Program-made: the position numbers and the translations under genes
Shown: in pieces, positions 2,907 through 18,548 of the stretch
Layout: each line of letters begins with the position of its first letter
How positions within the stretch are numbered: the stretch's first letter is position 1
Notes under the pieces: model-generated
Told to the model about the DNA's origin: nothing
Database searches by the model: none
The model's input: the letters and a program-made list of their open reading frames with translations, nothing else
NCBI GenBank assembly: GCA_963729605.1
Contig: CAVSNY010000007.1
Coordinates: 32,001-96,000, forward strand
Reading direction: 5' to 3'
Source: an uncultured Gammaproteobacteria bacterium
Lineage (GTDB): Bacteria > Pseudomonadota > Gammaproteobacteria > DRLM01
Length of the DNA: 64,000 bases

Positions 2907-3275
2907 ATGAGTCAAAGTCTTTATGAGCAGATCGGTGGAGAGGCGGCGGTGAACGCGGCGGTGGATATTTTTTATCGCAAGGTCTTGGCCGATGACCGCA
3001 TCAGTCGTTTCTTCGAAAGCGTGGACATGGAAAAACAAGCGGCCAAACAAAAGGGGTTTCTAACCTTCGCCTTCGGCGGCCCCCATCACTACACCGGCAA
3101 GGACATGCGCCAAGGCCACGCCCACTTGGTCAAACAAGGCCTGAATGACAGCCATTTCGATGCCGTGATGGAAAACCTGGCGGCCACTTTGCAAGAACTG
3201 AACGTGCCGCAAAACCTCATCGCCGAAATGGCCGCCATCGCGGAAAGCACCCGCAACGACGTGCTGGGCCGCTAG
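2907..3275 (+). CDS. glbN: Group I truncated (2/2) hemoglobin
   Basis: SLYEQIGG, VDIFY (TyrB10), QAAKQ, FGG, proximal His in GHAHL, HFDAV; AGGAGG RBS. Confidence 0.9.
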   Translation: MSQSLYEQIGGEAAVNAAVDIFYRKVLADDRISRFFESVDMEKQAAKQKGFLTFAFGGPHHYTGKDMRQGHAHLVKQGLNDSHFDAVMENLAATLQELNVPQNLIAEMAAIAESTRNDVLGR

Positions 3276-3295
3276 GCCGCACCGGGGGCGACGCC

Positions 3296-4297
3296 GTGCC
3301 GCGTATTCGTTTCGAGCAACACACCTACGTTTTGGCCGATGACGAATCGGTGCTCGACGGTTTGACGCGGCACGGCGTCGCCGTCCCTTCTTCCTGCCGC
3401 AGCGGTATTTGCCAGACCTGTCTGATGCGCGCGGTGCACGGCGACGTGCCCGCGGCGGCGCAGCACGGCATCAAAGAAAGTCTGCGCGAACGCCGGTATT
3501 TCCTCGCCTGCTCGTGCAGGCCCACGGCCGACCTGGAAGTCGCCCTGCCCAGCGATGACGACGTCCCGCTCACCATGGCGGAGGTCATCGGCAAAGATCC
3601 GCTGAATGCCGACATCACCCGTTTCCGCCTGCGGGTACCGGCCGGTTTCGCGTATCGCGCCGGGCAATTCATCAATCTGCATCACCACGAACACGTGCGC
3701 AGTTATTCCCTCGCCAGCGTGCCGCAAACCGAGGATTATCTCGAGCTGCACGTCCAGCGCATCGACGCCGGCCGCGTGAGCGGCTGGCTGCATGACGAGT
3801 GCAAGTCGGGCGATCCACTCACCTTGCACGGTCCCTTCGGCGATGCTTATTACCGCAAAGGCGATCCCGACCAGGCCTTATTGCTGATCGGCACCGGCTC
3901 GGGCCTCGCGCCGCTGTGGGGCATCGCCCGCGACGCCTTGGCCCAAGGCCACCGCGGCGCCATCCATTTATTTCACGGCAGCCGCGCCGCCGCCGGACTC
4001 TATTTGGTGGACGAGCTGCGGGCGCTCGCGCAAGCCCATTCCAACTTCAGCTACACGCCCTGCGTTTCCGGCGGCGGGCCGGCGGAGAACGTCAGCGCGG
4101 GCCGGGCCAATGAAATCGCGCTGCAACAATTTCCACGACTGAAAGGCTGGCGGATCTTTTTGTGCGGCAACGCCGAGATGGTGAAGGGCGCCAAGAAAAA
4201 GGCCTTTCTGGCCGGCGCCGCCTTGCAAGACATTCACGCCGACCCCTTCGAATTCAGCGCAAAACCCGCCGCGAAAAACGCCGCCGCCCTGGCTTGA
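3296..4297 (+). CDS. 2Fe-2S ferredoxin / FAD / NAD(P)H-binding oxidoreductase (FNR-like)
   Basis: CRSGICQTC...C cluster motif, RSYS FAD motif, GTGSGLAP NAD motif, FLCG; starts 20 bp after the globin. Confidence 0.9.
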   Translation: MPRIRFEQHTYVLADDESVLDGLTRHGVAVPSSCRSGICQTCLMRAVHGDVPAAAQHGIKESLRERRYFLACSCRPTADLEVALPSDDDVPLTMAEVIGKDPLNADITRFRLRVPAGFAYRAGQFINLHHHEHVRSYSLASVPQTEDYLELHVQRIDAGRVSGWLHDECKSGDPLTLHGPFGDAYYRKGDPDQALLLIGTGSGLAPLWGIARDALAQGHRGAIHLFHGSRAAAGLYLVDELRALAQAHSNFSYTPCVSGGGPAENVSAGRANEIALQQFPRLKGWRIFLCGNAEMVKGAKKKAFLAGAALQDIHADPFEFSAKPAAKNAAALA

Positions 4298-4422
4298 GCC
4301 GCGCGGCCCCGGCCTTAAACTGCGCGGCTGAAACATGAGTTCGTAGGCCGGCGTCCGCGCGTGCGATTTTGATTATCCCGCTCCACGAGAAGATGGCTCA
4401 TCGGCCAGCGCGGCCACGCCGA

Positions 4423-4956
4423 TCACGTCCCGTCGAAAAACGCCGCCTCGTCTTCGCTCAAGACGCCGGCCGGCGGGGACGGTTTCAGCGCCGCGGGCGC
4501 CGCGCGCCGCTCGTGGTTTGCCGCGACCCGGATCTTATCCAACAACAAACCGTATTCCCCTTTCACTTGCACGACGCGGAAGGTGTAAATCATCACGTCG
4601 GCGAGCGCCGCCAACCAGGTCCGCGCACCCGGCGGGGACTGCGGCGCCAGGGCGATCAAGCGCACGGGAAGCACCGCTTCGCGCAAAGCGGGATACAGGC
4701 GATACAACCAGGGTTCTTGTTGCGCCACCATGTCCGCCGCCCGCAATCCCGCCAGCAACACCGCGGCGGGGTCGGCGCCCATACTCACCAGGGTGGGACG
4801 CCGCGCGGCGTCCAGCGCCAGCAGCACGTCGCCCGGCACGGGGAAGGCATCATCCAGTAAATGGTGGTCGCCGATCAGTCCCGGCAGGGTTTCCATGGCC
4901 AGTCTTTTCAATATATCCGGCGTTACGTTCGCGATTGAGACGATGATCAAGCTCAT
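4423..4956 (-). CDS. Hypothetical protein, third gene of the ParA-CBM operon
   Basis: 177-aa ORF with a GGGGG RBS-like stretch before ATG 4956. Start is uncertain and overlaps the 3' end of the upstream ORF. Ends in an acidic/aromatic tail (LSEDEAAFFDGT). Confidence 0.6.
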   Translation of the reverse strand: MSLIIVSIANVTPDILKRLAMETLPGLIGDHHLLDDAFPVPGDVLLALDAARRPTLVSMGADPAAVLLAGLRAADMVAQQEPWLYRLYPALREAVLPVRLIALAPQSPPGARTWLAALADVMIYTFRVVQVKGEYGLLLDKIRVAANHERRAAPAALKPSPPAGVLSEDEAAFFDGT

Positions 4957-5698
4957 AAGGCCCCCGCTTGGAATTATTGTGTGGGCCATCCTCCCGGCCC
5001 TTGCCGGCTTCCATGCGGGCTTCGCGCGCCAGGCGCAGAAAATGATTGAACGCGGTCAGGGCGATCCGTCCCGGCGCTTCGCCCAGGCCGTTCTCGAGCT
5101 CCACTATCCGCAGGCTGATCCCCAGAAAACGCGCACCGCCCTCCACCAGTTTTTCGGCGTATTGCCGCCGTTGGTTTTTATGTTCGGTCAAACACGCGAT
5201 CGCTAAACTCTCCGGCCGCGACACCGCCTTGATCCGCACATAGGTCCGCCGCAAGGCGTCCGCGCCCGGCAGCAACACGAAGAGGGCGCACGCGCAATAA
5301 TGCAAGAGGCCGGCGGACAAACGCGGCACGGGGAGCAGACAGCAGTGCGGAATCTTGCCGCGCTCGCCGAATACCTGTTCCAAACGCCGCCCGACCGCGG
5401 CCTCGTCATACCAATCATCCGCCCGCGTCATCGGCAAGACCAGGCGGCCGTCGTCGTCGGCCGGCGCCGGCCCATCCTCGCGGCGGCGGGACACGGCCAG
5501 CTCGATCACGTCGACGCCCTGGGCGCGGAGGGCGAGACGCAAACGCCTCGCCACCCCGTATTCCTCCGCGTCCGCGCAGCACACCGGCAACAGCACGGTC
5601 TGCGGCGGTCCCTCGCCGCGCTCGCTCAAAAAATAATGGCTGATCCGCCGCAGTCCCTCGCGGCCGTCGACCGGCGGGTCGAGGCCGGACCGCGGCAT
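4850..5698 (-). CDS. Hypothetical protein; C-terminal half resembles FlhG/FleN/MinD but there is no Walker A motif
   Basis: ATG overlaps the upstream stop (TGATG, 5696-5700). DALRRTYVRIKAV...AEKLVEGGARFLGISL resembles FlhG TDAYALIK...F.KL....RFL.V.L by eye. Confidence 0.65.
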   Translation of the reverse strand: MPRSGLDPPVDGREGLRRISHYFLSERGEGPPQTVLLPVCCADAEEYGVARRLRLALRAQGVDVIELAVSRRREDGPAPADDDGRLVLPMTRADDWYDEAAVGRRLEQVFGERGKIPHCCLLPVPRLSAGLLHYCACALFVLLPGADALRRTYVRIKAVSRPESLAIACLTEHKNQRRQYAEKLVEGGARFLGISLRIVELENGLGEAPGRIALTAFNHFLRLAREARMEAGKGREDGPHNNSKRGPYELDHRLNRERNAGYIEKTGHGNPAGTDRRPPFTG

Positions 5699-6798
5699 CA
5701 GCGCAGGACCCGCAACAGCGAATTGCTGCCGCCGAAGCTATTGGGCACCCGCATGGGATTGGCTGGGTCTTCCTGCCATTTGCCGCCGATGATGACCCGG
5801 TATTGATAGGCGCCGGGCGAGACCTTTAACACCTTTTGTATGGTGTCGTTGACGGTGCGGGTTTCCACCTCGTGATCGGGAATCCAGCCGTTGAAGTCAC
5901 CGGCGATCTGCATGTCCTTATTGATCAAATGATGGTAACTCAGCACCACCCGCCGCTCCCGGCCGTTTTCCATGCTCTCGCTGAAGGTCATGCCGGGCAC
6001 CCGCTGCATGCCGATCTCCGCGGTCTCGCGCCCGCGCCGCGGCGGCAGATCATGGCCGGTCAGCCATTCCACCAGTTCGGCGAAATCCTCGGCGGCGGCG
6101 GTGCGCGGCGCGTGATCGAGGAGCGGCCGGCCGAGATAGGCGGCCTCTTTCACCTTGACGGTGGATCGCACCCGCAGCGGGGTGACCTCGCGGGGCCAGC
6201 GCTCCTCGAGTTCCGCCAGCAGACGCCGGGTGATGCGGGAACGCAGATCGACCAGACTGGGCAGCAGATCGATCCGGATATCCAAATCATAACGGTCGCT
6301 CACCAGGTCGATGGTTTCCCGCAGCCGCGCCACGCCGTCCAAGGCATAAGGACTCAGGTCCACCGGGATCAACACCCGCGTGGCGGCGCGCAGCGCGTTG
6401 ATGGACAACATACCCAGGCCGGGCGGACAGTCGATGATGATGTGGTCGTAATAATTCGCCACCGGCTCCAATTGCTTGAGCAAGGTCTTTTCCCGTTCCG
6501 GTTTGGCCGCCAGCAGGTGTTCCACCCCCGCCAGGGTTATCGCCCCCGGAATCAGATCCACACCCGGCACCACCTTGTAAAAGATGACGTCCATCAGGGA
6601 CGCCGATCCCGCGAACACCTCATACAAACCCGGCAGCGCCGCGGCCGGTATCCCCAGCCCCAGGGACGCATGGCCTTGCGCGTCCATATCGATGAGCAAT
6701 ACCCGCAAACCCTTGCGTCCCAAACCGGCGGCCAGATTGATGGCCGTGGTGGTTTTGCCGCACCCGCCTTTTTGATTGGCGATCGCTATCACATTCAT
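5698..6798 (-). CDS. ParA/Soj family ATPase fused to a C-terminal AMPK-beta-like glycogen-binding (CBM48-like) domain
   Basis: GGAGGA RBS before ATG 6798. Deviant Walker A NQKGGCGKTT, LIDMDAQG, IIDCPP. C-terminus IAGDFNGW...PGAYQYRVIIGGKWQEDPANP...NSFGGSNSLL. Confidence 0.88.
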   Translation of the reverse strand: MNVIAIANQKGGCGKTTTAINLAAGLGRKGLRVLLIDMDAQGHASLGLGIPAAALPGLYEVFAGSASLMDVIFYKVVPGVDLIPGAITLAGVEHLLAAKPEREKTLLKQLEPVANYYDHIIIDCPPGLGMLSINALRAATRVLIPVDLSPYALDGVARLRETIDLVSDRYDLDIRIDLLPSLVDLRSRITRRLLAELEERWPREVTPLRVRSTVKVKEAAYLGRPLLDHAPRTAAAEDFAELVEWLTGHDLPPRRGRETAEIGMQRVPGMTFSESMENGRERRVVLSYHHLINKDMQIAGDFNGWIPDHEVETRTVNDTIQKVLKVSPGAYQYRVIIGGKWQEDPANPMRVPNSFGGSNSLLRVLR

Positions 6799-7391
6799 AC
6801 ACTGTCCTCCGTTAGCAGAGCCCACACGGCGTGACGCCGCATCCTCAGGTATGAAGGCATCCCTGCCCATTGCCGCCACGGCGCGTCCCGCCGCGTTGTG
6901 CCGCCCCATGCCCCGGCCCATGACGGCGGCACCGCGAATGCGACAGTTTTTGCCCGTCCTTGCAACGGGACTGAAGAGGGCAACCGTCTTCACCGTCTCG
7001 TGACGTCATGTAATGGCGCGCACGCCCGCTCCGTCCCAAATCGGCGAGCCGGTCGTAAACGGCATGCGGCGGATTTGCAACCGGCGACCTCGCCGGCGCC
7101 GAGGACGTGCTCGGTCAGGGCGGGCATTCGCATCCAACAGGAGAAGGGAAACCAGACGGGGAGATCAAAGGAATCGGCGACGGAGGGGATGAAACCTCCC
7201 TTCCGGCGGCCTGAGGACGGCCGGCGCCGGATAAATTCAAGCGAGCTTCACTAGGGCGGAGCGAGCTTCCCGCGGCAACCATACCACCCCCTTTGCCGGG
7301 AGGCATTTTTAACGCTTAAGTAAAGTTGCCGAACCAGGGCTTGTCAAGCCGCGGGCGAGTGCGCCGCCGTTTCGTGCCGCATCGCTCGTGA

Positions 7392-9404
7392 TCAACTCGA
7401 ACCCAGAAAATTCCGCAGATTGGCGAGATGGGCCTGACCGCGCTCCTGGCGTTTTTCGGGATCGGCCTGGCGGTCGCCGCCTTCCCACTGCAAATCATCG
7501 GCGGGCAGCTCCGCCAAAAACCGGCTGGGCTCGCGTGGCAGCATGTCGGCGCCGCGTTTGCGTTTGGCGGCGATGGTGAAGGTCAAGGTCTTGCGCGCGC
7601 GGGTGATGCCCACATAGGCGAGCCGCCGTTCTTCCTCGAGCTTGCCTTCCTCGACGCTGCTGCGGTGCGGCAGACACTCCTCCTCCATCCCCACCAGAAA
7701 CACATGGGGAAACTCCAGCCCCTTGGCGGCGTGCAGGGTGAGCAGATGCACGTTGTCGGTCTGGGCGTCCTCTTCGTTGCGCTCCAGGATATCCATCAGG
7801 CTCATGTGCGCCACCAGCTCGGCGAGGGTTTTCTCCTCGGTGTTTTGTTCGGCGATGCGCTGCATCCAGGCCACCAGCTCCCAGACGTTGGCGATGCGCT
7901 TCTCGGCGGCGCGATCGTCCTTGGAATTGTCGCGCAGCCATTGTTCGTAGCCGCTGCCGGCGATCATCTCCCGCACCACCGCGATGGGATCGCCGCGCCG
8001 GCCGCGGTCGCCGAGATCGGTCAGCCAGTTGGCGAAATAGTCGAGGCGATCGGCGGCGCGCTCCGACAAGTGCTGGCGCAGTCCCAGCTCGAAGCAGGCG
8101 GCGAATAAACTGACGCCGCGCGCGCTGGCATAGTCCGCCAGCTTTTCCAAGGTGGTTGGACCGATCTCGCGGCGCGGCACGTTGACCACCCGCAAAAACG
8201 CGCTGTCGTCCTCGGGGTTGATCAGCAAACGCAGGTAAGCCATCAGGTCGCGCACCTCGCTGTGGGCGAAGAACGAGGTGCCGCCGCTCAAATAATAGGG
8301 GATGCGCTGCTCGCGCAAGGCCTTTTCGAACAGGCGCGACTGATGATTGCCGCGATAAAGAATCGCGTAGTCGCGGTAGTCGGTGCGGTGTTTGAATTTG
8401 TGGCTGAGAATTTCCGAGATCACCGTCTCGGCCTCGTGTTCGTCGCTGCGGGTCTCGATGACCCGCAGCGGATCGCCGTAGCCCAGCTCGCTCCACAATT
8501 TTTTCTCGAAGAGGTGGGGATTGTTGGCGATCAGCGCGTTGGCGGCCTTGAGGATGCGGCCGCTGGAGCGGTAATTCTGCTCCAGCTTGATCACCTTCAA
8601 GCCGGGAAAATCCTCCTGCAGCAGCGCGAGATTTTCCGGTGCCGCGCCGCGCCAGGCGTAGATCGATTGATCGTCGTCGCCGACCACGGTGAGCGCACCG
8701 CGCACCCCCACCAGGGAACGCACCATATGATATTGGCTGGCGTTGGTGTCCTGGTATTCGTCCACCAGCAGATAACGGATGCGGTTCTGCCAGGCGCCGA
8801 GGATATCCGGCTGTTCGCGGAACAGCAGCGCAGGCAGCAAAATCAAGTCATCGAAATCGACGGCGTTATAGGCCCGCAAATGCCGCTGATACTGCGCGTA
8901 GACGCTGGCCGCCAACACCTGCGCCGCGTCGCCGTCGGCCGCGGCGAGCGCCTGCTCGGGGTCGAGCAGCAGGCCTTTCCAGCGCGAGATCTGCCACTGG
9001 ATATTATTCACCTGGCTGTCGTCGTTGAACTCGCGGCGCAGCAGCTCGCGCACCAGGCCCGCGCTGTCGCCGGCGTCGAAAATCGAAAAGCCGGCGCGGT
9101 AGCCCAGCGCCGCCAGCTCGCGGCGGATGATGTTCAAACCCAGGGTGTGAAAGGTCGAGACCTGCAAACCCTTGGCCTCCTTGCCGCCCAGCAGTTCGCC
9201 GACCCGGCCCTTCATCTCGCGCGCCGCCTTGTTGGTGAAGGTGACCGCCGCGATGTGGCGCGCCTCGATGCCGCATTCCTTGATGAGATAGGCGATCTTC
9301 TGGGTGATGACGCGGGTCTTGCCGCTGCCGGCGCCCGCCAGCACCAGCAGGGGGCCGTCGAGATAACGCACCGCGGCGCGTTGAGCGGGATTCAAGCCGG
9401 ACAT
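7392..9404 (-). CDS. rep: ATP-dependent DNA helicase Rep
   Basis: LAGAGSGKTRVITQKIAYLI, VDEYQDTN, VGDDDQSIYAWRG, LEQNYRS, TLHAAKGLEFP, EEERRLAYVGITRA; 670 aa with Rep-type C-terminus. Confidence 0.93.
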   Translation of the reverse strand: MSGLNPAQRAAVRYLDGPLLVLAGAGSGKTRVITQKIAYLIKECGIEARHIAAVTFTNKAAREMKGRVGELLGGKEAKGLQVSTFHTLGLNIIRRELAALGYRAGFSIFDAGDSAGLVRELLRREFNDDSQVNNIQWQISRWKGLLLDPEQALAAADGDAAQVLAASVYAQYQRHLRAYNAVDFDDLILLPALLFREQPDILGAWQNRIRYLLVDEYQDTNASQYHMVRSLVGVRGALTVVGDDDQSIYAWRGAAPENLALLQEDFPGLKVIKLEQNYRSSGRILKAANALIANNPHLFEKKLWSELGYGDPLRVIETRSDEHEAETVISEILSHKFKHRTDYRDYAILYRGNHQSRLFEKALREQRIPYYLSGGTSFFAHSEVRDLMAYLRLLINPEDDSAFLRVVNVPRREIGPTTLEKLADYASARGVSLFAACFELGLRQHLSERAADRLDYFANWLTDLGDRGRRGDPIAVVREMIAGSGYEQWLRDNSKDDRAAEKRIANVWELVAWMQRIAEQNTEEKTLAELVAHMSLMDILERNEEDAQTDNVHLLTLHAAKGLEFPHVFLVGMEEECLPHRSSVEEGKLEEERRLAYVGITRARKTLTFTIAAKRKRGADMLPREPSRFLAELPADDLQWEGGDRQADPEKRQERGQAHLANLRNFLGSS

Positions 9405-12487: not shown

Positions 12488-14875
12488 TTAACGGCCCAGC
12501 CGCTCGGCCAGCGGCCGATACTGCAAGCCGTAAAACATCTCGAGATAACGGCGGGTCTCGTCCCGTTCCAGATTCGTTACGTATTTCCAGAAACCGTAAA
12601 TACGCGACAGGGTCATCATCCGCTCGGCATACAGCTCCCAGGTGTAGCGGCTGCGCACGCGCTGCACCGCGCCGCCGGCGATTTTTTCCCAATAGGTCTC
12701 GTCGGCGGCGCAACGTTCGAAGAAATCGGCCATGCGGTCCGCGGCGCGGTCACCGTGATTGGGATCGATGTGAAATCCGGATACGCCGTCGACGATGATT
12801 TCCAAAGGGCCGCCGTACATGGTGGCGAAGGTCGGCAGGCCGGACGCCATCGCCTCGATCACGGTAAGACCGAAGGCCTCGAACAGCGCCGGCTGAACGA
12901 AGGCGCCGCGGCGGTCGGCGATGTAGCGGTACAGTTCACCGCTGAGGTTTTTGTCGAGGCGTAAGCCCAGCCAGCGCAGTTCGCCATCCAGTTGATGCGC
13001 ATCTATCAATTCATGCATGCGCGCGATCTGATGCTGTTCCTCGGCGTCGCCGGAGCGGGCCGCGTCCACGTAACCGCCCACCACGACCAGGTTGGCCGCC
13101 TCGCGCAACCGCGGATTGTTGCCGTACCATTCGACCAGGCCGGTGATGTTCTTGATGCGGTCGAGACGGGCCATGGTGAAGAGCAAGGGTTTGTTGGCGT
13201 CGCTGAGCGCGCCGCGGCAGTCGGGATAATCGCGCTGATAAATCATCGCCTCGATCTCGGCATGGAGGCCGCTCAGGCGCCGCGCCGTTTCATGATAGGG
13301 AAAATAGACCTCGGCGTCGGCGCCGGGCGAGACGATGTTGAATTTCGGGTCGAAGGGATCCATGCCCTGCACCACCCGATACAGGCCGGGCATGGTGTAG
13401 GCGCTGTAACTTTCATATTGACCGACGCTGTCCTCGCGGCCGGCGATTTCCTGATAGGTGCTGGTTATGATGAAATCCGCCGCGTTCATCGCGATCAAGT
13501 CCGCGGTGAATTGGCAGCTGAAATGATACTGCGGCTCGTTGTCGCGCCAGTAAAGATCGGACAGCAGATATTTGGTCTTCTCCAGGGCGTGGGCGATATT
13601 GCACTGGGTGACATGCAGGCGTTGCGACATCAACGTCGCCACCAGATTGCCGTCGGAGTAATTACCGACGATCAGATCCGGCCGGCCGCTCAATTCGGCC
13701 AGCACTTCCTTTTCGGCCTCCACCGCGAACCGTTCCAGATAGGGCCAGATTTCGAAGCGCGAAATCCAGTGCGGCACCACCTCGCCCTGCGCGCCGCGAA
13801 ACGGCACGCGCAAGATGCGCGCGTTGCGGGTGCCGACCACCGATTCCAGGCGCTGATCACAGCAGGTGCCCGGCGGCGCGTCGGGAATGAGACGGGTGAC
13901 GATGAGAATTTGCGGTTCGATATCCAGTCCCTGTTCGTCGAGCCGGGCGCGCATCTCTTTTTCCAGGGCGCGCACTTGATCGAGAATGTACACCACCTGG
14001 CCGCCGGTGTCGGGCAGACCCAGCACGTTGGCCTGGCCGAAGTAACCGTGCGGCGACAGGATCGTCATATTGAAGATCATCGGCACCCGGCTCAGGAATT
14101 GTTCGAGCGCCGCCGGCGCCGGCGCCTCGAGCAGATCCGAGAGCAAGGTGATGGTCTCGCGCATCCGTTCGACATCGCGGCCCCAGCCGATCTCCAGACC
14201 CAAGGCCTGCAAGGCCGGGCCCACGACATCCCAGCCGGCGGTGCGCTCCTGGCCGCTGAGATAGGCGTCGGCGTGGCGCAGGGCCCGGCGCAAGTCCGCC
14301 ATCTCGCTGATCCGGTTATTGAGCATCAACTGGCGGCCCTGGCATTGATGCACCCGCAGAAAATCGAGCAGACGCCGGTCGCCCTTGCCCAGTTCCTGAA
14401 ACAGTTGGCTCGACAAACGGCGATTGAGAAATTCGACCCCGCGGCCGATGGAGCGCGCCTCATGCAGCTTGGGAAATTCGCGATTGAAGGGCCCGATGTC
14501 GAATTCCAGCGTCCACTCGTTGCCGTCGCCGCCGCCGATCAGGCGTTCCTTGAACTGGAGATACACGGCGGTGGAAACCGTTTCGATCTGCAAGGATTCG
14601 AGATGGATGCGTAAATAATTCCAGCGCGCCACATAACGGCGGGTGGCGAAATAAAGCCACGGTGTCCCCACCGCCGCCTCTTGCGTGATTCTGATGGTGT
14701 CCGCCAAGGGCGAATCCAGCAATGCCGTCTGCCCGTGCTCGCGACAAAAGGCGTTGAACTCGTCCCATAATTCGGAGCGCAATAAAAACGGTCTACCAAG
14801 GGCCGCGTAACGCCGCAATAACAGATAGACGGCGTCGCGGTGGGTCTGCACGAAGCTGGCGATGTCTTCACTCAT
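12488..14875 (-). CDS. sus: Sucrose synthase (GT4)
   Basis: [69 protein letters not shown]; 795 aa. Confidence 0.95.
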
Positions 14876-17030
14876 GGGACACCCCCTCCCGGCCGTCGGC
14901 CTCGCTCATGGCGCCGAAGAAGTCATAATGCTCGATGCCTTCCAAGATGCCCCAGGCATAATGACCGTCGGCGAAATAGATGCGCTCGCGGCCGCGCAAT
15001 TTCTCCAGCTCTTCACTGTGATTGCCGACCACCACGCCCAGGGTGTTGCCGGTCAGCATTTCTTCATCGTTGCCGGAATCGCCCACCACCAGAATGTGCT
15101 CGACGGGGATGCCCCATTTCATCGCCAGATAGCGGATGGCGCAACCTTTGGAGGCGCGCACCGGCAACAGATCGAGATACAGACCGTGGGAATAGACCAC
15201 ATTGGCGTGCAGCTTGCGGCGGCGCAGGCGGCGGGATATTTCGGCGATGGGCGGCGCCTCGGGGGCGACGAAGTAACTGAGCTTGAAGGGCAGTTGCTCG
15301 CTGGCGGGCTGCGGCAGAATGCCCGGTATATCCCGCATGGCTTCCTGCAACAGCGCGGGCTGCCAGCGGTAAGCGAGATGACGCTGATAACCCACGTCCG
15401 ACATGTGGCGCGGTCCGTAATAGATTTCGGTGCCGACCGCGGTGACGATCAAGTCGGGCACCGGCACTTGCCATTCTTTCAATATTTGCAGGGCACTCTC
15501 CAAGCGCCGCCCGGTGGCGACGCCGAACCCCACCCGGCCGTTGGTCCGCCGCAGACGTTCGACCAATTTCTTGAGCGCGGACCGGTCGCCGATCAAGGTA
15601 TTGTCGATGTCGCTGACCAGCAAACGGTCGGCGGTCGGCAAGGGATTTCTCTCCGCCACCGCCCGCTGGCTGCGTTGAGGTTTGTCGTGCAGGGTGTCGA
15701 TGGATTTCATATAACTCTCCACGTGGGAAGACCAGGAAAAATTTTGGGCGCCGGCCAGACCCGCCTCCGACCACCGCGTCCAACGCGCGTCGTCGCTCAA
15801 GGCGGAATGGATGGCCTCGCCCATCGCCTTGGCGTTCAGGGGATCGATGAGCAGGCCGTTCCGGCAGACCTCGATGATGTCGCGCGGCCCGCCGTCCTCG
15901 GTCGCCACCACCGGCAGACCGCTGGCCGCCGCCTCGATCAAGGTCAAACCGAACGGCTCGGTGAGCGCGGGATTGACGAACAAGCCGCGACTTTCCGCCG
16001 CCAGCCGGTAAAGATCCGGCACGTCATCGGATTGATGGTGTTTCGGATAGGCGACTTTGCCATAAAGATCGTAGCGGTCGATCAGCAATAGAATTTCGGT
16101 CAACACGCCGCGCGCGCTTTTATCCATCGCGGCGATGTCGTCGCGATTGCCGGCGACCAGGATCAGATTGGCCCGCTCGCGCAACGCGGGATGTTCGCCG
16201 TAGGCCTTGATCAGAGTGGCGATGTTTTTGCGTTCGTCGGCGCGCGACAAGGCGAGGATCATCGCTTGGCCGGGGTCGCGGAGAAAACGGCGAATATCCG
16301 GGTAAATCCCCGGTTTTTTCGTTTGCGTATCCGTCGGGTAGAAATGGGTGAGATCGACGCCGGGCGGTATCACCCGCATCCGCGCCGGCTGATAATTGTC
16401 GTAGATGCGGTATTGGCGCTCGACTTCCTGACGGGTACTCGCCACCACCAGCGCGGCGTTGTCGAGAGCGAATTCCTCGGCCTCGATGCGCTGGGTCATA
16501 TTGTATTGCTTTTCGATCACCTCGTTTTTCACGCCTTGATCGAGCAGGCGGCGTTTCTTTTCCCGACCCAGCGAATGACCGGTGAACACCAGCGGCACGC
16601 CGAGCAAGGCGGCCAGCCGCGCGCCGACGTAACCGGCGTCGGCGTAATGGCTGTGAATCACGTCCGGCACCCGTCCTATCCGGCGGATGTGTTGCAAGGC
16701 ATGATCGGCGAAGCTGTCGAGATGGGGCCACAACACTTCCTTGCGTAGGTAGCGGCGCGGCCCGCAGGGAATGCGCACGATGCGCGCCTTGGCCGCGAGT
16801 CGTTCTTCCGGCACGGCGTAGCTGTCATTCACTTTGGGATCGCTGATTTGACGAGTGAGCAGATCGACCCGCGCCACGCGGGGATGGGCGGCGAGCGCGG
16901 CGGCCAACTCGACCACGTATTTGATCTGGCCGCCGGTGTCGGCGTCGCGGCCCAACTCCATATCGTATCCGCGCACCAGGCCATGCACGCTGATGAGCAT
17001 GATGTATAAACCTTCGGCTTGCTGCTTCAT
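14868..17030 (-). CDS. sps: Sucrose-phosphate synthase with C-terminal HAD sucrose-phosphate phosphatase domain
   Basis: [36 protein letters not shown]; HAD motifs SDIDNTL and GDSGND. Start moved to ATG 17030, which overlaps the upstream stop. Confidence 0.93.
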
Positions 17031-17947
17031 GCCGACCAGTCCCGCAAATAGCGCTGATATAGCGCCCGATCCTCGGCAATCGCGCCACGCTGGCGACACA
17101 CCGCGGCGGCGAAATCCGCCGCGCGCTCGGCGAGCACCGGCAGCGCCCAGCCGTTCAACAAGCCGCATATCGCGACCGCGCTGAACGCATCGCCCGCGCC
17201 GACGCTGTCGATCAAGCCGCTGACCGCCACCGGCGCGGCCTGATGAATTTCCTGCTCGGTAATCAAAATGGCGCCGCGCTCGCCGCGCGTCACTATCAAC
17301 AACTCGCCGCCGCAGGCGCGCCGTAAACCGTCCGCGCCGTCGAGCAGATCCGCCTCGTCGCGCAAACGACGCTGCAGCAGCACCGCCAATTCGTGTTCGT
17401 TGAGTTTGATCCAGCGCGCACGCCGCAAGGCGTCCTCCAGCCAAGCGAGCCGCCACCAGGGATCGCGCAGATTGATGTCGAGAAACACCGGCACGCCGCC
17501 GTCCCGCACGATGTCCAAGCCGGCACGGGCGGTCGCATGACGGGCGATCAGGCTGCCGTGATACAACAAATCAGCCGGCTGCCGATCCAGCTCGGCCCGC
17601 AGCGGCGCCGCGGCGATGAAGTCATAGGCCTGCTCGGCCAGGATATCGAAGCGCGGCTCACCGTCGACGAAACCGACCTGTACCCGGCCGGTGGGATGCG
17701 CGGAATCCCGCTGCACGGCGCGCGCATCCATGTCCCACGCCGCCATCGCCGCGATGACCTGCGCGCCCAATTCATCGTCGCCGATCCGGCTGATCAATAG
17801 CGGGGAGAGACCAAAACCGCGCAGATGCCAGGCCACGTTGAACGGCGCGCCGCCCAGAGTCGCGGTCCCGTCGGGATAGACGTCGTGCAATACCTCTCCG
17901 AATATGAGAGGCCGCGACGCCGACACGGCTACACGATTTTGTTTCAT
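17027..17947 (-). CDS. PfkB family sugar kinase, probable fructokinase
   Basis: FGEVL, GGAPFNVA, DINLR, IKLNEHE, DSVGAGDAF; first gene of the sucrose cluster. Confidence 0.88.
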   Translation of the reverse strand: MKQNRVAVSASRPLIFGEVLHDVYPDGTATLGGAPFNVAWHLRGFGLSPLLISRIGDDELGAQVIAAMAAWDMDARAVQRDSAHPTGRVQVGFVDGEPRFDILAEQAYDFIAAAPLRAELDRQPADLLYHGSLIARHATARAGLDIVRDGGVPVFLDINLRDPWWRLAWLEDALRRARWIKLNEHELAVLLQRRLRDEADLLDGADGLRRACGGELLIVTRGERGAILITEQEIHQAAPVAVSGLIDSVGAGDAFSAVAICGLLNGWALPVLAERAADFAAAVCRQRGAIAEDRALYQRYLRDWSA

Positions 17948-18548
17948 ACGGCTTCCAATCGCTGCGGTGGCATATCGAAACACACCGTCTAAAAAATGCT
18001 CGACACCGCGTTATGCGCGGCTGATTTTTGATTTAACGCTGCAAACGGCGGCTGAGGACCGTATACCGGAAGGTCCGGTTTTTGGTGATGGCATCCCCGC
18101 ATTTCGCGGAAATACGCCAGTATCAATGATCTTTCGACGCGGCATGCGCCTAAAAATCGCGTATTAAATTGAGTGCTGATATCGACTCATGGGAATTTCG
18201 TGCCAAAAGACCTTAACATTTATCGGCGGTGATTTCAAAGATACGCGGCGAAAAGCCGCGTGGAGAGATAGATTATGAAGCCGCTTTTCCGTAAATTTCC
18301 GTTGAATGAAAGAATTTTTCCACTGATCGGCGCTCGCGCGGCGGACGGCGGCGCAGAGCCGCCGGCTGCGCGAGCGGATGGTAAATTTTACACGGAGGTG
18401 AGCGGTGGCTTGAAGTTATGGGGTATTTGAATCAACCCGGAGGACCGCCGGTCGATATCGATCCGACCACGCCGACACGGCCGTAAGAGACCCGCGACGC
18501 AATAACTTCATGCCGGATTGGAGTGCGTGGTCAATGTAGAAACGGAAA

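What the first reader, a model, noticed from the sequence alone, without database searches (positions are those of the whole stretch)
4423..6798. Candidate glycogen-granule positioning system: ParA ATPase fused to a glycogen-binding domain, plus two coupled partner genes
Seen: a second ParA, distinct from the chromosomal parA-parB at 36.7-38.4 kb, with intact KGGCGKTT and IIDCPP. It keeps basic residues at the positions Soj uses for nucleoid binding (DLRSRITRR, RSTVKVKEA) and ends in ~85 aa with AGDFNGW, YQYR, GKW..DP.NP and N.FG..NS. It is coupled (TGATG) to two hypothetical genes, with no parB adjacent. Established: these motifs define the AMPK-beta/CBM48 glycogen-binding fold, and ParA/MinD ATPases position non-DNA cargo (McdA carboxysomes, PpfA/ParC chemoarrays, FlhG flagella). 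Inference: the operon spaces or segregates glycogen granules, or links carbon storage to the cell cycle. I know of no characterised example.
Basis: partly seen in the sequence, partly recalled or inferred. Interest (0 to 1): 0.85.

Follow-up and report, generated by a model that had tools for sequence, protein, structure and literature searches.

The report
ParA ATPase fused to glycogen-binding module
This is a real, conserved three-gene operon whose ParA-type ATPase carries its own glycogen-binding domain; a 2026 preprint already described the layout and guessed an immune role, but the evidence here points more to a role in handling stored glycogen, and nobody has tested either idea.

Summary
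On the minus strand, 5698-6798 encodes a 366-aa Soj-like ParA (AAA_31, E 3.8e-51) with a C-terminal AMPK1_CBM domain that passes Pfam's cut-off. It keeps the glucan-contact positions of AMPK-beta.

ORF2 (4850-5698) is a MinD/FlhG-fold protein without a Walker A motif. ORF3 (4423-4956) has a NucS-like nuclease fold without the E-x-K motif.

The triplet recurs in distant gammaproteobacterial families, usually behind a MerR-like gene. Yet ORF2 and ORF3 are missing from all sister genomes, which keep parA-CBM under purifying selection.

A preprint of 22 Oct 2026 (10.64898/2026.10.19.760177) already describes this "ParA-CBM system" and predicts immunity, citing a fast-evolving CBM. In this clade the CBM is not fast-evolving, and the flanks I checked are housekeeping genes.

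All carriers have glgA, but nearly all also have RuBisCO, so the glycogen link is confounded.

Best reading, at 0.4: the protein ties alpha-glucan to the nucleoid or distributes it. Function is untested. It is a new member of a recently described kind.

The parts
5698..6798 (-). parA-CBM gene, 366 aa plus stop. The ATPase domain is residues 1-250 (6049-6798), the variable linker is 251-285 (5944-6048), and the AMPK1_CBM domain is 286-366 (5701-5943).
   Evidence: The ORF and its sequence come, and the Pfam matches to AAA_31 and AMPK1_CBM. The closest solved ATPases are Soj/ParA and the closest solved CBMs are those of AMPK beta. A family of 47 fusion proteins exists. In the family alignment, W305, Y333, W341 and N359 are invariant and R334 is nearly invariant.
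4850..5698 (-). ORF2, 282 aa. It has a degenerate MinD/FlhG/ParA-like fold without a Walker A motif and a conserved N-terminal motif, RLxxISHHFLSE (here LRRISHYFLSE). The last ~47 aa overlap ORF3, are modelled with low confidence (pLDDT under 50) and differ in length and sequence among homologues.
   Evidence: The start overlaps the parA-CBM stop. It has no Pfam or NCBIfam hit. Homologues were found by phmmer and by locus reading. The model has pLDDT 64.8. The top fold hits are FlhG 4rz3 at E 2.1e-7, FleN 5j1j and MinD 4v02. None of 13 family members has GK[ST] or KGG. A 97%-identical 282-aa protein exists in another assembly.
4423..4956 (-). ORF3, 177 aa from ATG 4956 (188 aa if from 4989). 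It has a NucS/EndoMS-like PD-(D/E)XK fold without the E-x-K motif and a conserved C-terminal motif, LSxEExAFF (here LSEDEAAFF).
   Evidence: The alignment of 8 homologues is. The model has pLDDT 82.5 and pTM 0.72. The best fold hits are EndoMS 5gkj at E 1.2e-3, 5gke, NucS 2vld, and the Shedu nuclease domain 8ti9. The strand at the motif position reads [LI][VIA][SCA][FMY][DG] in 8 of 8 sequences. The protein atlas lead was NucS_C.
6799..7391 (-). Intergenic region of 593 nt between the rep helicase gene and parA-CBM. The MerR-like gene that precedes parA-CBM in other families is absent here.
   Evidence: tblastn with four MerR-like proteins finds nothing in the window, and the own genome has no match. 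No sigma-70-like site was found. The insertions and deletions listed among environmental contigs cluster here, at 6898-7068. The GC pattern is non-coding.

Best explanation
The locus is a chromosomal, mainly vertically inherited member of the "ParA-CBM system", in its variant with an inactive second ParA and an inactive nuclease-fold protein. I think it serves the cell's own alpha-glucan store rather than defence.

**Shown**
- The main protein is a Soj-type deviant-Walker-A ATPase with an AMPK-beta-type carbohydrate-binding module. The two are joined by a fast-changing linker of about 35 residues.
- The module keeps the residues that contact glucan in AMPK beta, and it is under purifying selection.

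**Inferred mechanism**
- With ATP bound, the ATPase dimerises and binds nucleoid DNA non-specifically. The Soj R189-equivalent position is Lys here (K215) and Arg in the family consensus.
- The two CBMs of a dimer hold glycogen. Polyvalent glycogen particles are thereby tethered to the nucleoid and spread over it, so they are inherited by both daughter cells. ATP hydrolysis releases them.
- ORF2 (a pseudo-MinD with the conserved N-terminal peptide RLxxISHHFLSE) and ORF3 (a pseudo-nuclease with the conserved C-terminal peptide LSxEExAFF) would be accessory modulators of the ATPase cycle or of DNA contact. They are dispensable, because sister species keep parA-CBM alone.
- In other families a MerR-like regulator precedes the operon.
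For: **Domains and residues**
- Pfam: AAA_31 at 3.8e-51 and AMPK1_CBM at 29.4 bits, above the 26.8 cut-off.
- The alignment to AMPK beta CBMs (2lu3, 1z0n, 2f15) pairs GDFNGW with GSFNNW, YQYR with HQYK, GGKW with DGQW, and GGSNSLL with GT(I/V)NN.
- In 43 family members W305, Y333, W341 and N359 are invariant, and R334 is conserved in at least 90%.
- The ATPase is closest to Soj/ParA, and VKVKEA aligns with VRLSE(C/A).

**The CBM is constrained**
- Across 9 loci from different families, mean identity is 52.1% for the ATPase, 21.6% for the linker and 52.0% for the CBM.
- dN/dS against three sister loci is 0.13-0.19 for the whole gene and 0.06-0.18 for the CBM. Neighbours give 0.04-0.09 (rep), 0.07-0.11 (trHb) and 0.19-0.25 (FNR).

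**Stable housekeeping context**
- The order rep then parA-CBM holds in all 8 loci of family f1, across two genera.
- Families f162 and f200 share flanking ORFs on both sides of the module, including two c-type-cytochrome-like ORFs just upstream.
- Flanks in L057 and L060 include lgt, an rRNA-type methyltransferase, FBPase, an aminotransferase, a Mg-chelatase-like protein, an ammonium transporter and a GGDEF protein. No defence or mobile-element family appeared among the 10 flanking ORFs scanned.
- PADLOC gives only weak P-loop or HTH matches.
- GC content is even across 3.5-7 kb.

**Glycogen genes**
- The own genome has glgA (574 bits) and glgB.
- 14 of 14 carriers in a sample of 401 genomes of the class have glgA.

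**The partner genes are real**
- They show coding GC patterns and have conserved homologues next to parA-CBM.
- DNA contigs from three studies cover 4200-7100, and every listed insertion or deletion lies outside the three ORFs.

**A separate carboxysome candidate exists.** The genome has another ParA-like gene about 7 kb from a RuBisCO gene, so this ParA is not needed for carboxysomes.
Against: - No binding, localisation or phenotype data exist.
- The glgA association is confounded. 13 of 14 carriers also have RuBisCO, and 86% of RuBisCO-positive genomes in the sample have glgA. Within RuBisCO-positive genomes the comparison is 13 of 13 against 128 of 151, p = 0.13.
- glgC in the own genome reads only as frameshifted pieces.
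- Distribution is patchy, at 15 of 401 genomes. ORF2 and ORF3 evolve fast, at 16-29% and 27-31% identity to the window's proteins. They come and go between sister species. These are traits the preprint reads as signs of conflict.
- A ParA that holds its cargo directly differs from known ParA ratchets, in which a separate partner sits on the cargo.
- One genome (G172, locus L054) keeps only a 116-aa CBM ORF with no ATPase domain.
- No glycogen gene lies next to the operon in the loci I read.
- The 43-sequence alignment was collected by searching with the CBM region, so its 76.8% (CBM) against 62.8% (ATPase) figure is biased towards a conserved CBM.
Confidence: 0.4

Rival explanations
1. Immune sensor, as proposed by Li, Burroughs and Aravind (2026 preprint). 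The CBM detects a carbohydrate that signals infection, such as glycosylated virion proteins, cell-wall or capsule precursors, or polysaccharide depletion. This triggers ParA multimerisation that limits the invader. The inactive REase senses DNA.
For: - The preprint describes exactly this architecture and its variant with an inactive second ParA plus an inactive REase.
- Distribution is patchy, at 15 of 401 genomes.
- The partner genes are present in this genome but not found in 5 sister genomes.
- ORF2 and ORF3 diverge fast.
- Nuclease-fold domains, including the Shedu nuclease domain, are among the fold hits of ORF3.
Against: - The stated basis, rapid divergence of the CBM, is not seen in this clade. 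The CBM changes no faster than the ATPase core (52.0% against 52.1% identity) and has the lowest dN/dS of the gene's three parts in two of the three sister comparisons.
- The glucan-contact residues are invariant or nearly so.
- The gene sits in the same housekeeping context across genera and families.
- No active effector is encoded.
- There is no meaningful PADLOC match.
- 13 of 14 carriers are RuBisCO-bearing genomes, a tie to lifestyle that is unusual for defence genes.
- I could not see the preprint's supplementary figures, so its full evidence is not assessed.
Confidence: 0.2
2. Glycogen-status switch rather than a positioning machine. As in AMPK, the CBM reports the amount or state of glycogen. 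That changes the ParA ATPase/dimer cycle and hence its binding to DNA or to the MerR-like regulator, coupling carbon storage to transcription or to the cell cycle.
For: - The CBM is of the AMPK-beta type.
- A well conserved MerR-family gene (44-61% identity between families, 82% between two loci of one genus, with a conserved C-terminal part) lies directly upstream in 7 of 10 loci from other families.
- Response-regulator or GGDEF genes lie nearby in some loci.
- From established knowledge: ParA-family proteins can act as transcription co-regulators, for example Soj, P1 ParA and FleN.
Against: - The MerR-like gene is absent from this genome and from the window and 7 family-f1 loci searched, where parA-CBM is still under purifying selection.
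- No target genes are evident.
- The MerR-like gene may simply regulate the operon.
Confidence: 0.2
3. The CBM-like domain binds something other than cytoplasmic glycogen, such as another glucan, a protein partner or a different cargo. The system would then position or regulate that cargo in autotrophs.
For: - The association with RuBisCO (13 of 14 carriers) is about as strong as that with glgA (14 of 14).
- The Pfam score is only just above the cut-off.
- A sucrose synthase / SPS-SPP / fructokinase cluster lies 6-11 kb away in the window.
Against: - All canonical glucan-contact positions are kept.
- The genome has a separate ParA-like gene near RuBisCO.
- There is no signal peptide or transmembrane segment that would place the domain outside the cytoplasm. 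This is from reading the sequence; I ran no predictor.
Confidence: 0.1

Closest known systems
ParA-CBM system (branch ConB5), variant with a second inactive ParA and an inactive REase. Li, Burroughs & Aravind, bioRxiv 10.64898/2026.10.19.760177, 22 Oct 2026. I read sections 11, 27 and 29, the abstract, and passages found by term search.
   Same: The architecture is the same: ParA with a C-terminal AMPK1_CBM, followed by a fast-evolving catalytically inactive ParA-like protein and an inactive restriction-endonuclease-fold protein. I reached the same domain calls independently.
   Different: The preprint predicts immunity from a "rapidly diverging" CBM. In this gammaproteobacterial clade the CBM is conserved and the context is housekeeping. 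The word MerR does not occur in the preprint's main text (0 occurrences), whereas I find a MerR-like gene upstream in 7 of 10 loci. This genome and its family lack that gene, and its sister species lack ORF2 and ORF3.
Chromosomal Soj/ParA (solved: 8ray, Thermus Soj 1wcv/2bek, Helicobacter Soj 6iub)
   Same: It is the best sequence relative of the ATPase domain, at E 4.3e-44 to 3.6e-35. It shares the deviant Walker A KGGxGKT, and a basic residue aligns with the R of NVRLSE.
   Different: There is no ParB or parS partner. There is an extra linker plus CBM. The gene is separate from the genome's own parAB at 36.7-38.5 kb.
McdA/McdB carboxysome positioning system and other cargo-specific ParA/MinD ATPases (PpfA, ParC, FlhG)
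   Same: This would be a ParA-family ATPase dedicated to a non-DNA cargo in an autotroph. The genome holds about nine ParA/MinD-like loci.
   Different: McdA is a much weaker match (6non, E 4.4e-16). In those systems a separate adaptor sits on the cargo and stimulates the ATPase. Here the ATPase itself carries the cargo-binding domain, and the candidate partners are dispensable in sister species.
AMPK beta-subunit carbohydrate-binding module (CBM48 type; 1z0n, 2f15, 2lu3, 4y0g)
   Same: It is the best solved relative of the C-terminal domain, at E 2.3e-6 to 6.3e-6, with the Trp / Lys-or-Arg / Trp / Asn positions aligned.
   Different: It is fused to a bacterial ParA ATPase rather than to a kinase scaffold. 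Binding has not been tested.
PhaM of Ralstonia eutropha, which tethers PHB granules to the nucleoid.
   Same: It is a functional analogy for the proposed mechanism: a protein that binds both a storage granule and DNA, so that granules are shared between daughter cells.
   Different: It is unrelated in sequence and fold, is not an ATPase, and handles a different polymer.
FlhG/FleN/MinD (for ORF2) and NucS/EndoMS (for ORF3)
   Same: Fold similarity. ORF2's model matches 4rz3 at E 2.1e-7, 5j1j and 4v02. ORF3's model matches 5gkj at E 1.2e-3, 5gke and 2vld.
   Different: ORF2 lacks the P-loop in 13 of 13 relatives, and ORF3 lacks E-x-K in 8 of 8. Neither has a Pfam or NCBIfam match. TM-scores are modest, at 0.38-0.49.

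Membership tests
ParA/Soj deviant Walker A ATPases (Pfam AAA_31 / CbiA) | Profile match above the curated cut-off | tested here: met
   AAA_31 scores 174 bits against a cut-off of 27, and CbiA scores 59 bits against 25.4.
ParA/Soj deviant Walker A ATPases (Pfam AAA_31 / CbiA) | Deviant Walker A KGGxxGK[ST] with the signature lysine, plus Walker A' and Walker B aspartates | tested here: met
   The motif reads NQKGGCGKTT. K10, G11, G12, K15, T16, D37 and D123 are invariant in 43 family members.
ParA/Soj deviant Walker A ATPases (Pfam AAA_31 / CbiA) | ATP-dependent dimerisation and non-specific DNA binding | not testable with these tools
   Only the alignment speaks to this: VKVKEA aligns with VRLSE(C/A) of solved ParA/Soj, and the consensus has R at that position. 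That this position is the DNA-binding Arg (Soj R189) is recalled, not retrieved.
AMPK1_CBM / CBM48-type glycogen-binding module | Profile match above the Pfam gathering score | tested here: met
   The score is 29.4 bits against 26.8, over residues 287-364. In the whole genome it is 32.8 bits and the only hit. Relatives score 30.4-43.6 bits.
AMPK1_CBM / CBM48-type glycogen-binding module | Conserved glucan-contact residues: two Trp, Lys/Arg and Asn | tested here: met
   They align to AMPK beta. W305, W341 and N359 are invariant and R334 is conserved in at least 90%. They are kept in 9 of 9 loci from different families. Which residues contact sugar in AMPK beta is recalled.
AMPK1_CBM / CBM48-type glycogen-binding module | Binding of glycogen or cyclodextrin | not testable with these tools
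   This needs a pull-down or calorimetry experiment.
ParA-based cargo positioning system (ParABS / McdAB type) | A partner protein on the cargo that stimulates the ATPase, encoded next to it and co-inherited | tested here: inconclusive
   ORF2-like genes follow parA-CBM in 9 of 10 loci and ORF3-like genes in 7 of 10 loci of other families. Both are missing in 8 of 8 sister loci and not found in 5 of 5 sister genomes. No interaction has been shown.
ParA-based cargo positioning system (ParABS / McdAB type) | Defined cargo whose placement depends on the ATPase | not testable with these tools
   The only indicators are the CBM and the presence of glgA, and the co-occurrence is confounded with autotrophy.
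ParA-CBM system, variant 2 (Li, Burroughs & Aravind 2026 preprint) | ParA with C-terminal AMPK1_CBM, joined by genes for an inactive second ParA and an inactive REase | tested here: met
   Supported, compared with the text of section 29.
Prokaryotic conflict (defence) systems | Fast-evolving sensor domain | tested here: not met
   The CBM is 52.0% identical against 52.1% for the ATPase across families. CBM dN/dS is 0.06-0.18. ORF2 and ORF3 are fast-evolving, however.
Prokaryotic conflict (defence) systems | Location in variable or defence islands, or beside mobile elements | tested here: not met
   The window's neighbours are gatB, an M23 peptidase, a truncated globin, a ferredoxin reductase and rep. 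Flanks are conserved in f1 and between f162 and f200. Flanks are housekeeping in L057 and L060. Only these contexts were examined, not all carriers.
Prokaryotic conflict (defence) systems | Sporadic distribution with gain and loss among close relatives | tested here: met
   15 of 401 genomes of the class have a match, and 9 of 12 in the order. ORF2 and ORF3 are present in this genome but not in sister species.
Prokaryotic conflict (defence) systems | An effector such as a nuclease, NADase or pore-former | tested here: not met
   ORF3 lacks the E-x-K motif in 8 of 8 sequences, and ORF2 lacks a P-loop in 13 of 13. No PADLOC family scored better than E 8.6e-5, on the P-loop only.

The most novel reading that the evidence does not exclude
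This is the first dedicated partitioning system for a polysaccharide storage granule. A nucleoid-binding ParA ATPase grips glycogen directly through its own CBM48-type module and so spreads and segregates glycogen particles in autotrophic Gammaproteobacteria. A pseudo-ParA and a pseudo-nuclease tune its ATPase cycle or its DNA contact. It would also be a ParA that works without a cargo-bound activating partner, since sister species keep the ATPase alone.
Probability: 0.25. Interest if true: 0.8.

Novelty: new member of a known kind. Interest (0 to 1): 0.55.

Why it matters
ParA/MinD ATPases are known to place chromosomes, plasmids, carboxysomes, chemoreceptor arrays and flagella. No system is known that places or partitions glycogen, the commonest bacterial carbon store. 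My literature searches for such a system found only the one preprint.

A ParA with a built-in glycogen-binding module is the most direct candidate for that role. It would also show a variant of the ParA mechanism in which the ATPase itself holds the cargo.

The preprint proposes the opposite, an immune sensor. The two ideas make different and easily tested predictions: glycogen binding and granule distribution on one side, phage protection on the other.

The comparative data here sharpen the question and point to natural "minimal" versions to work with. These data are the conserved CBM, the stable housekeeping context, the restriction to RuBisCO-bearing genomes, the optional partner genes, and a conserved upstream MerR-like gene that the preprint's main text does not mention.

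Tried and rejected
- **Complex prediction.** The job with parA-CBM (alignment A1) and ORF2 residues 1-235 (alignment A2) returned "no answer", with scores of 0.00 and 0.00 against a mark of 0.32 and no controls run. It counts neither for nor against binding.
- **Sequence searches with ORF2.** The word-based search found only one 97%-identical protein. The exhaustive phmmer run gave 5 hits at E up to 0.001, three of them useful. No Pfam, NCBIfam or PADLOC family matched ORF2 or ORF3. A profile of ORF3 found nothing among PDB sequences.
- **Related loci in genome contigs.** The search with the CBM region returned only 2 close loci.
- **Promoter and terminator scan of 4200-7500.** No promoter-like sites were found, and 5 terminator-like sites against 3.6 expected. 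This was uninformative.
- **Insertion or mobile-element origin of the 1.4-kb ORF2-ORF3 stretch.** blastn against the sister loci found no remnant, and the GC content is even. Whether this genome retained or regained the two genes is unresolved. By rep identity it is closest to L023 and L024 (98-99%) and further from L035 (91%). That implies several losses or one gain. parA-CBM and FNR are more diverged at synonymous sites than rep (dS 0.41-0.58 and 0.74-0.77 against 0.16-0.28), which could reflect recombination.
- **glgA co-occurrence as specific support.** I rejected this after the RuBisCO control.
- **Reads and contigs.** One joint in run X4 (4510 to 6376) and one in X3 have sides of 22 and 21 letters. 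They are the kind the tool warns about, so I ignored them. Contigs from one RNA library (X17) lie on 4824-4976 and on parts of 5791-6547. The tool states that this does not show transcription, so I make no claim about expression.
- **Small-share runs.** I did not use them for habitat.
- **Atlas searches.** I used them only as leads (MinD/ParA-like; NucS_C) and then tested those leads by folding.

**Unpublished or unscored genomes.** One search flagged genomes G151 and G305 as unpublished. Both are glgA-positive non-carriers and are counted in the 196 of 400 tally and in the tables. No other claim rests on them. G258 was not scored.

Full report
**What is there**

On the minus strand of the window, three ORFs run head to tail between the rep helicase gene (7392-9404) and a convergent ferredoxin-reductase gene (3296-4297).

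- **parA-CBM (5698-6798)** starts at ATG 6798 behind a GGAGG and encodes 366 aa.
  - Pfam finds AAA_31 (E 3.8e-51, residues 1-174), CbiA, and an AMPK1_CBM domain at residues 287-364 (E 9.5e-7; 29.4 bits against a curated cut-off of 26.8).
  - It is the only AMPK1_CBM match in the 3.48-Mb genome.
- **ORF2 (4850-5698, 282 aa)** starts with the ATG of a TGATG that overlaps the parA-CBM stop.
It starts at 4956 (or 4989) and overlaps the end of ORF2 by 107 (or 140) nt.
- Both ORFs have coding-type GC at the three codon positions. The GTG-extended 431-aa version of the first gene does not.
- The chromosomal parA-parB pair lies at 36.7-38.5 kb and is separate.

**The main protein**

- The ATPase domain is closest to chromosomal Soj/ParA structures: 8ray at E 4.3e-44, and Thermus and Helicobacter Soj at about 1e-35. 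It is far from McdA (4.4e-16), MinD (about 1e-18) and FleN (1.6e-12).
- The deviant Walker A (KGGCGKTT) and the Walker A'/B aspartates are invariant in 43 relatives.
- VKVKEA aligns with VRLSE(C/A) of the solved ParA and Soj chains, so a basic residue sits where Soj has its DNA-binding arginine (the role of that arginine is recalled).
- The C-terminal domain aligns with the AMPK beta-1 and beta-2 CBMs at E 2.3e-6 to 6.3e-6. GDFNGW pairs with GSFNNW, YQYR with HQYK, GGKW with DGQW, and GGSNSLL with GT(I/V)NN.
- In the family alignment W305, Y333, W341 and N359 are invariant and R334 is nearly so.
- So the domain assignment is sound, and the glucan-contact positions are kept. Which positions contact sugar in AMPK beta is recalled knowledge.

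**The two downstream proteins**

Neither matches any Pfam, NCBIfam or PADLOC family.

*ORF2*
- It has very few sequence relatives. The word search found one 97% twin, and the exhaustive phmmer run found 5 hits.
- With homologues taken from related loci (alignment A2, 13 sequences), the model has an alternating beta-alpha fold (pLDDT 64.8).
- Its best solved matches are FlhG (4rz3, E 2.1e-7), FleN (5j1j) and MinD (4v02).
- None of the 13 sequences has a GK[ST] or KGG motif. It is a pseudo-ATPase.
- It carries a conserved N-terminal motif, RLxxISHHFLSE.

*ORF3*
- With 8 homologues (A3) it folds confidently (pLDDT 82.5, pTM 0.72).
- It matches the nuclease domain of EndoMS/NucS (5gkj at E 1.2e-3; 5gke, 2vld) and the Shedu nuclease domain.
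- Where these enzymes have E-x-K, all 8 sequences read [LI][VIA][SCA][FMY][DG].
- It ends in a conserved motif, LSxEExAFF.

**Is the triplet conserved?**

*Close relatives: no.*
- The order holds 12 genomes, and 9 of them (two of five genera) have the fusion.
- In all 8 fetched loci of this family the order rep then parA-CBM is kept. L024 and L034 gave identical statistics and may be one record.
- tblastn finds no ORF2 or ORF3 in any of the 8, and blastn finds no remnant.
- HMM searches of 5 whole sister genomes find neither gene.
- In two same-genus loci the ferredoxin-reductase gene follows parA-CBM within 21-278 nt.
- parA-CBM in these genomes is under purifying selection:

| Gene or part | dN/dS against three sister loci |
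|---|---|
| parA-CBM, whole gene | 0.13-0.19 |
| parA-CBM, CBM only | 0.06-0.18 |
| rep | 0.04-0.09 |
| trHb | 0.07-0.11 |
| FNR | 0.19-0.25 |

*Distant relatives: yes.*
- In an even sample of 401 genomes of the class, 15 match the CBM region. Fourteen match at E 1.4e-13 or better, from nine families.
- I fetched 10 loci from other families and read them:

| Feature next to the CBM match | Loci (of 10) | Exceptions |
|---|---|---|
| Full-length fusion | 8 | L054 has only a 116-aa CBM ORF with no ATPase domain; L062 is cut by the contig end |
| ORF2-like gene directly downstream | 9 | Not in L055 |
| ORF3-like gene after that | 7 | Not in L055, L059, L061 |
| MerR-family gene directly upstream | 7 | Not in L055, L059, L062 |

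- The MerR-family gene is 44-61% identical between families (82% between the two loci of one genus) and matches Pfam MerR_1.
- An HMM of ORF3 finds 11 of 401 genomes. Ten have it next to parA-CBM, and one (G086) is an orphan lacking the C-terminal motif.
- The MerR-like gene is absent from the window, from 7 family-f1 loci and from the own genome.
They are also optional: this genome is the only one of its family seen to have them.
- DNA contigs from three metagenome studies (biofilter, wetland, soil) cover 4200-7100 at about 97-98% identity. Single contigs bridge the ORF3-ORF2-parA junctions. All ten listed insertions or deletions fall in intergenic DNA (4307, 4342, 6898-7068). One of these runs may be the source of the assembly.

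**Prior art**

A full-text search for AMPK1_CBM with ATPase found a preprint posted 22 Oct 2026 by Li, Burroughs and Aravind (10.64898/2026.10.19.760177).

[quoted passage not shown] - That is this locus.
[quoted passage not shown] The work is computational.
- MerR does not occur in the main text.
- Other searches found no paper on a ParA that positions glycogen: "ParA-like" with "glycogen granules"; "MinD family", ParA, glycogen, cargo; "ParA ATPase", glycogen, positioning; "ParA-CBM"; and glycogen, ParA, McdA, granules. The library lacks most subscription journals.

**Immune or cellular?**

For this clade the preprint's stated argument does not hold.
- Across 9 loci from different families, the CBM is as conserved as the ATPase core (52.0% against 52.1% mean identity). 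Only the linker is fast, at 21.6%.
- In the 43-sequence family the CBM is more conserved (76.8% against 62.8%; 28 of 81 invariant columns against 36 of 250). That set was gathered with the CBM as query, so it is biased.

The context is stable and housekeeping.
- rep then parA-CBM holds across two genera.
- Families f162 and f200 share flanking ORFs on both sides of the module, including two c-type-cytochrome-like ORFs just upstream.
- Flanks in L057 and L060 are lgt, a methyltransferase, FBPase, an aminotransferase, a Mg-chelatase-like protein, an ammonium transporter and a GGDEF protein.
- No active effector is encoded.

On the other side, three traits are conflict-like. The distribution is patchy, ORF2 and ORF3 diverge fast (16-31% identity to the window's proteins), and they differ between sister species.

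**Glycogen link**

- The own genome has glgA (574 bits) and glgB (957 bits).
- Its only glgC-like locus reads in many frames. This is either assembly error or decay.
- In the class sample, 14 of 14 strong carriers have glgA, against 196 of 400 overall.
- As a control I scored RuBisCO. 13 of 14 carriers have it, against 164 of 401 overall.
- glgA is present in 86% of RuBisCO-positive genomes. Within that group the contrast is 13 of 13 against 128 of 151, p = 0.13.
The positive support is weak, though.
- What the data do show is that the system is confined to autotrophic, glycogen-making Gammaproteobacteria. That fits a carbon-storage role better than defence.
- The genome has about nine ParA/MinD-like loci, one of them roughly 7 kb from a RuBisCO gene. 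Carboxysomes therefore probably have their own ParA.

**Verdict**

The domain call and the linkage of the three genes hold. The genes are not universally kept together, and the glycogen association is confounded. The function is untested.
- The layout is no longer unpublished.
- My best explanation, at 0.4, is a cellular system in which a nucleoid-binding ParA holds alpha-glucan through its own CBM and tethers or distributes glycogen, with ORF2 and ORF3 as optional modulators.
- The rivals are the immune sensor (0.2), a glycogen-status regulatory switch (0.2), and a non-glycogen ligand or cargo (0.1).
- The search of earlier findings, the listing of cluster members, the VIA-align libraries and paper supplements were unavailable.

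Noticed in passing
window 12488-17983 (minus strand): A cluster lies 6-11 kb from the finding: sucrose synthase (795 aa), a fused sucrose-phosphate synthase / sucrose-phosphate phosphatase (862 aa), and a PfkB-family sugar kinase (318 aa). This is a second soluble-carbohydrate pathway close to the glycogen-binding ParA. The same arrangement was not looked for in other carriers.
   Followed up: partly
own genome G000:C7:1124068-1127529 (outside the window): The only glgC-like locus is readable only as pieces in several frames with stops. The adjacent second glgB copy has a frame change between profile positions 78 and 75. The peptide pieces remain well conserved. This looks like local assembly error or very recent decay. 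It bears on whether this strain makes ADP-glucose.
   Followed up: partly
own genome G000:C2:179971-188129 and C6:407914 (outside the window): There are two RuBisCO large-subunit genes. A 223-aa ParA-like ORF lies about 7 kb downstream of one of them and is a candidate McdA. In all, about nine ParA/MinD-like loci are in the genome. No AMO/pMMO family match was found, but the control genomes did not match either.
   Followed up: no
L053, L054, L056, L057, L058, L060, L061 (e.g. L057:6984-7466): A MerR_1-family gene of 151-205 aa, with a conserved C-terminal part (e.g. ...SLVVTGDVVLVFH...ALTGQEWVFPVAEL...), lies directly upstream of parA-CBM in 7 of 10 loci from other families. It is absent from this genome. 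The word MerR does not appear in the preprint's main text.
   Followed up: partly
L054:8570-8920 (genome G172): Here the CBM stands alone as a 116-aa ORF, 200 nt after the MerR-like gene, with no ATPase domain. ORF2-like and ORF3-like genes follow it. A genome of the same genus (G336, locus L056) has the full 375-aa fusion. This is a natural deletion variant or a decaying copy.
   Followed up: no
L073:8002-8658 (genome G086): This is an orphan ORF3-like gene (E 1.4e-30, profile positions 1-142). It lacks the C-terminal LSxEExAFF motif, and no ParA-like ORF is beside it. The genome had no CBM match.
   Followed up: partly
P0044-P0047 (532-641 aa) and L059:8401-9963: These are long forms of the fusion. 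In P0045 and P0047 roughly 270-370 residues separate the ATPase (1-175) from the CBM (residues 543-623 and 450-524). The L059 ORF has an N-terminal extension of about 100 residues, with a 28-35-residue match to the MerR-like HTH.
   Followed up: no
window 2907-4297 and sister loci: The truncated-globin and ferredoxin-reductase pair next to the operon is conserved in the genus. Synonymous divergence from sister genomes is much higher for FNR (0.74-0.85) and parA-CBM (0.41-1.08) than for rep (0.16-0.68). This hints at recombination in this segment.
   Followed up: no
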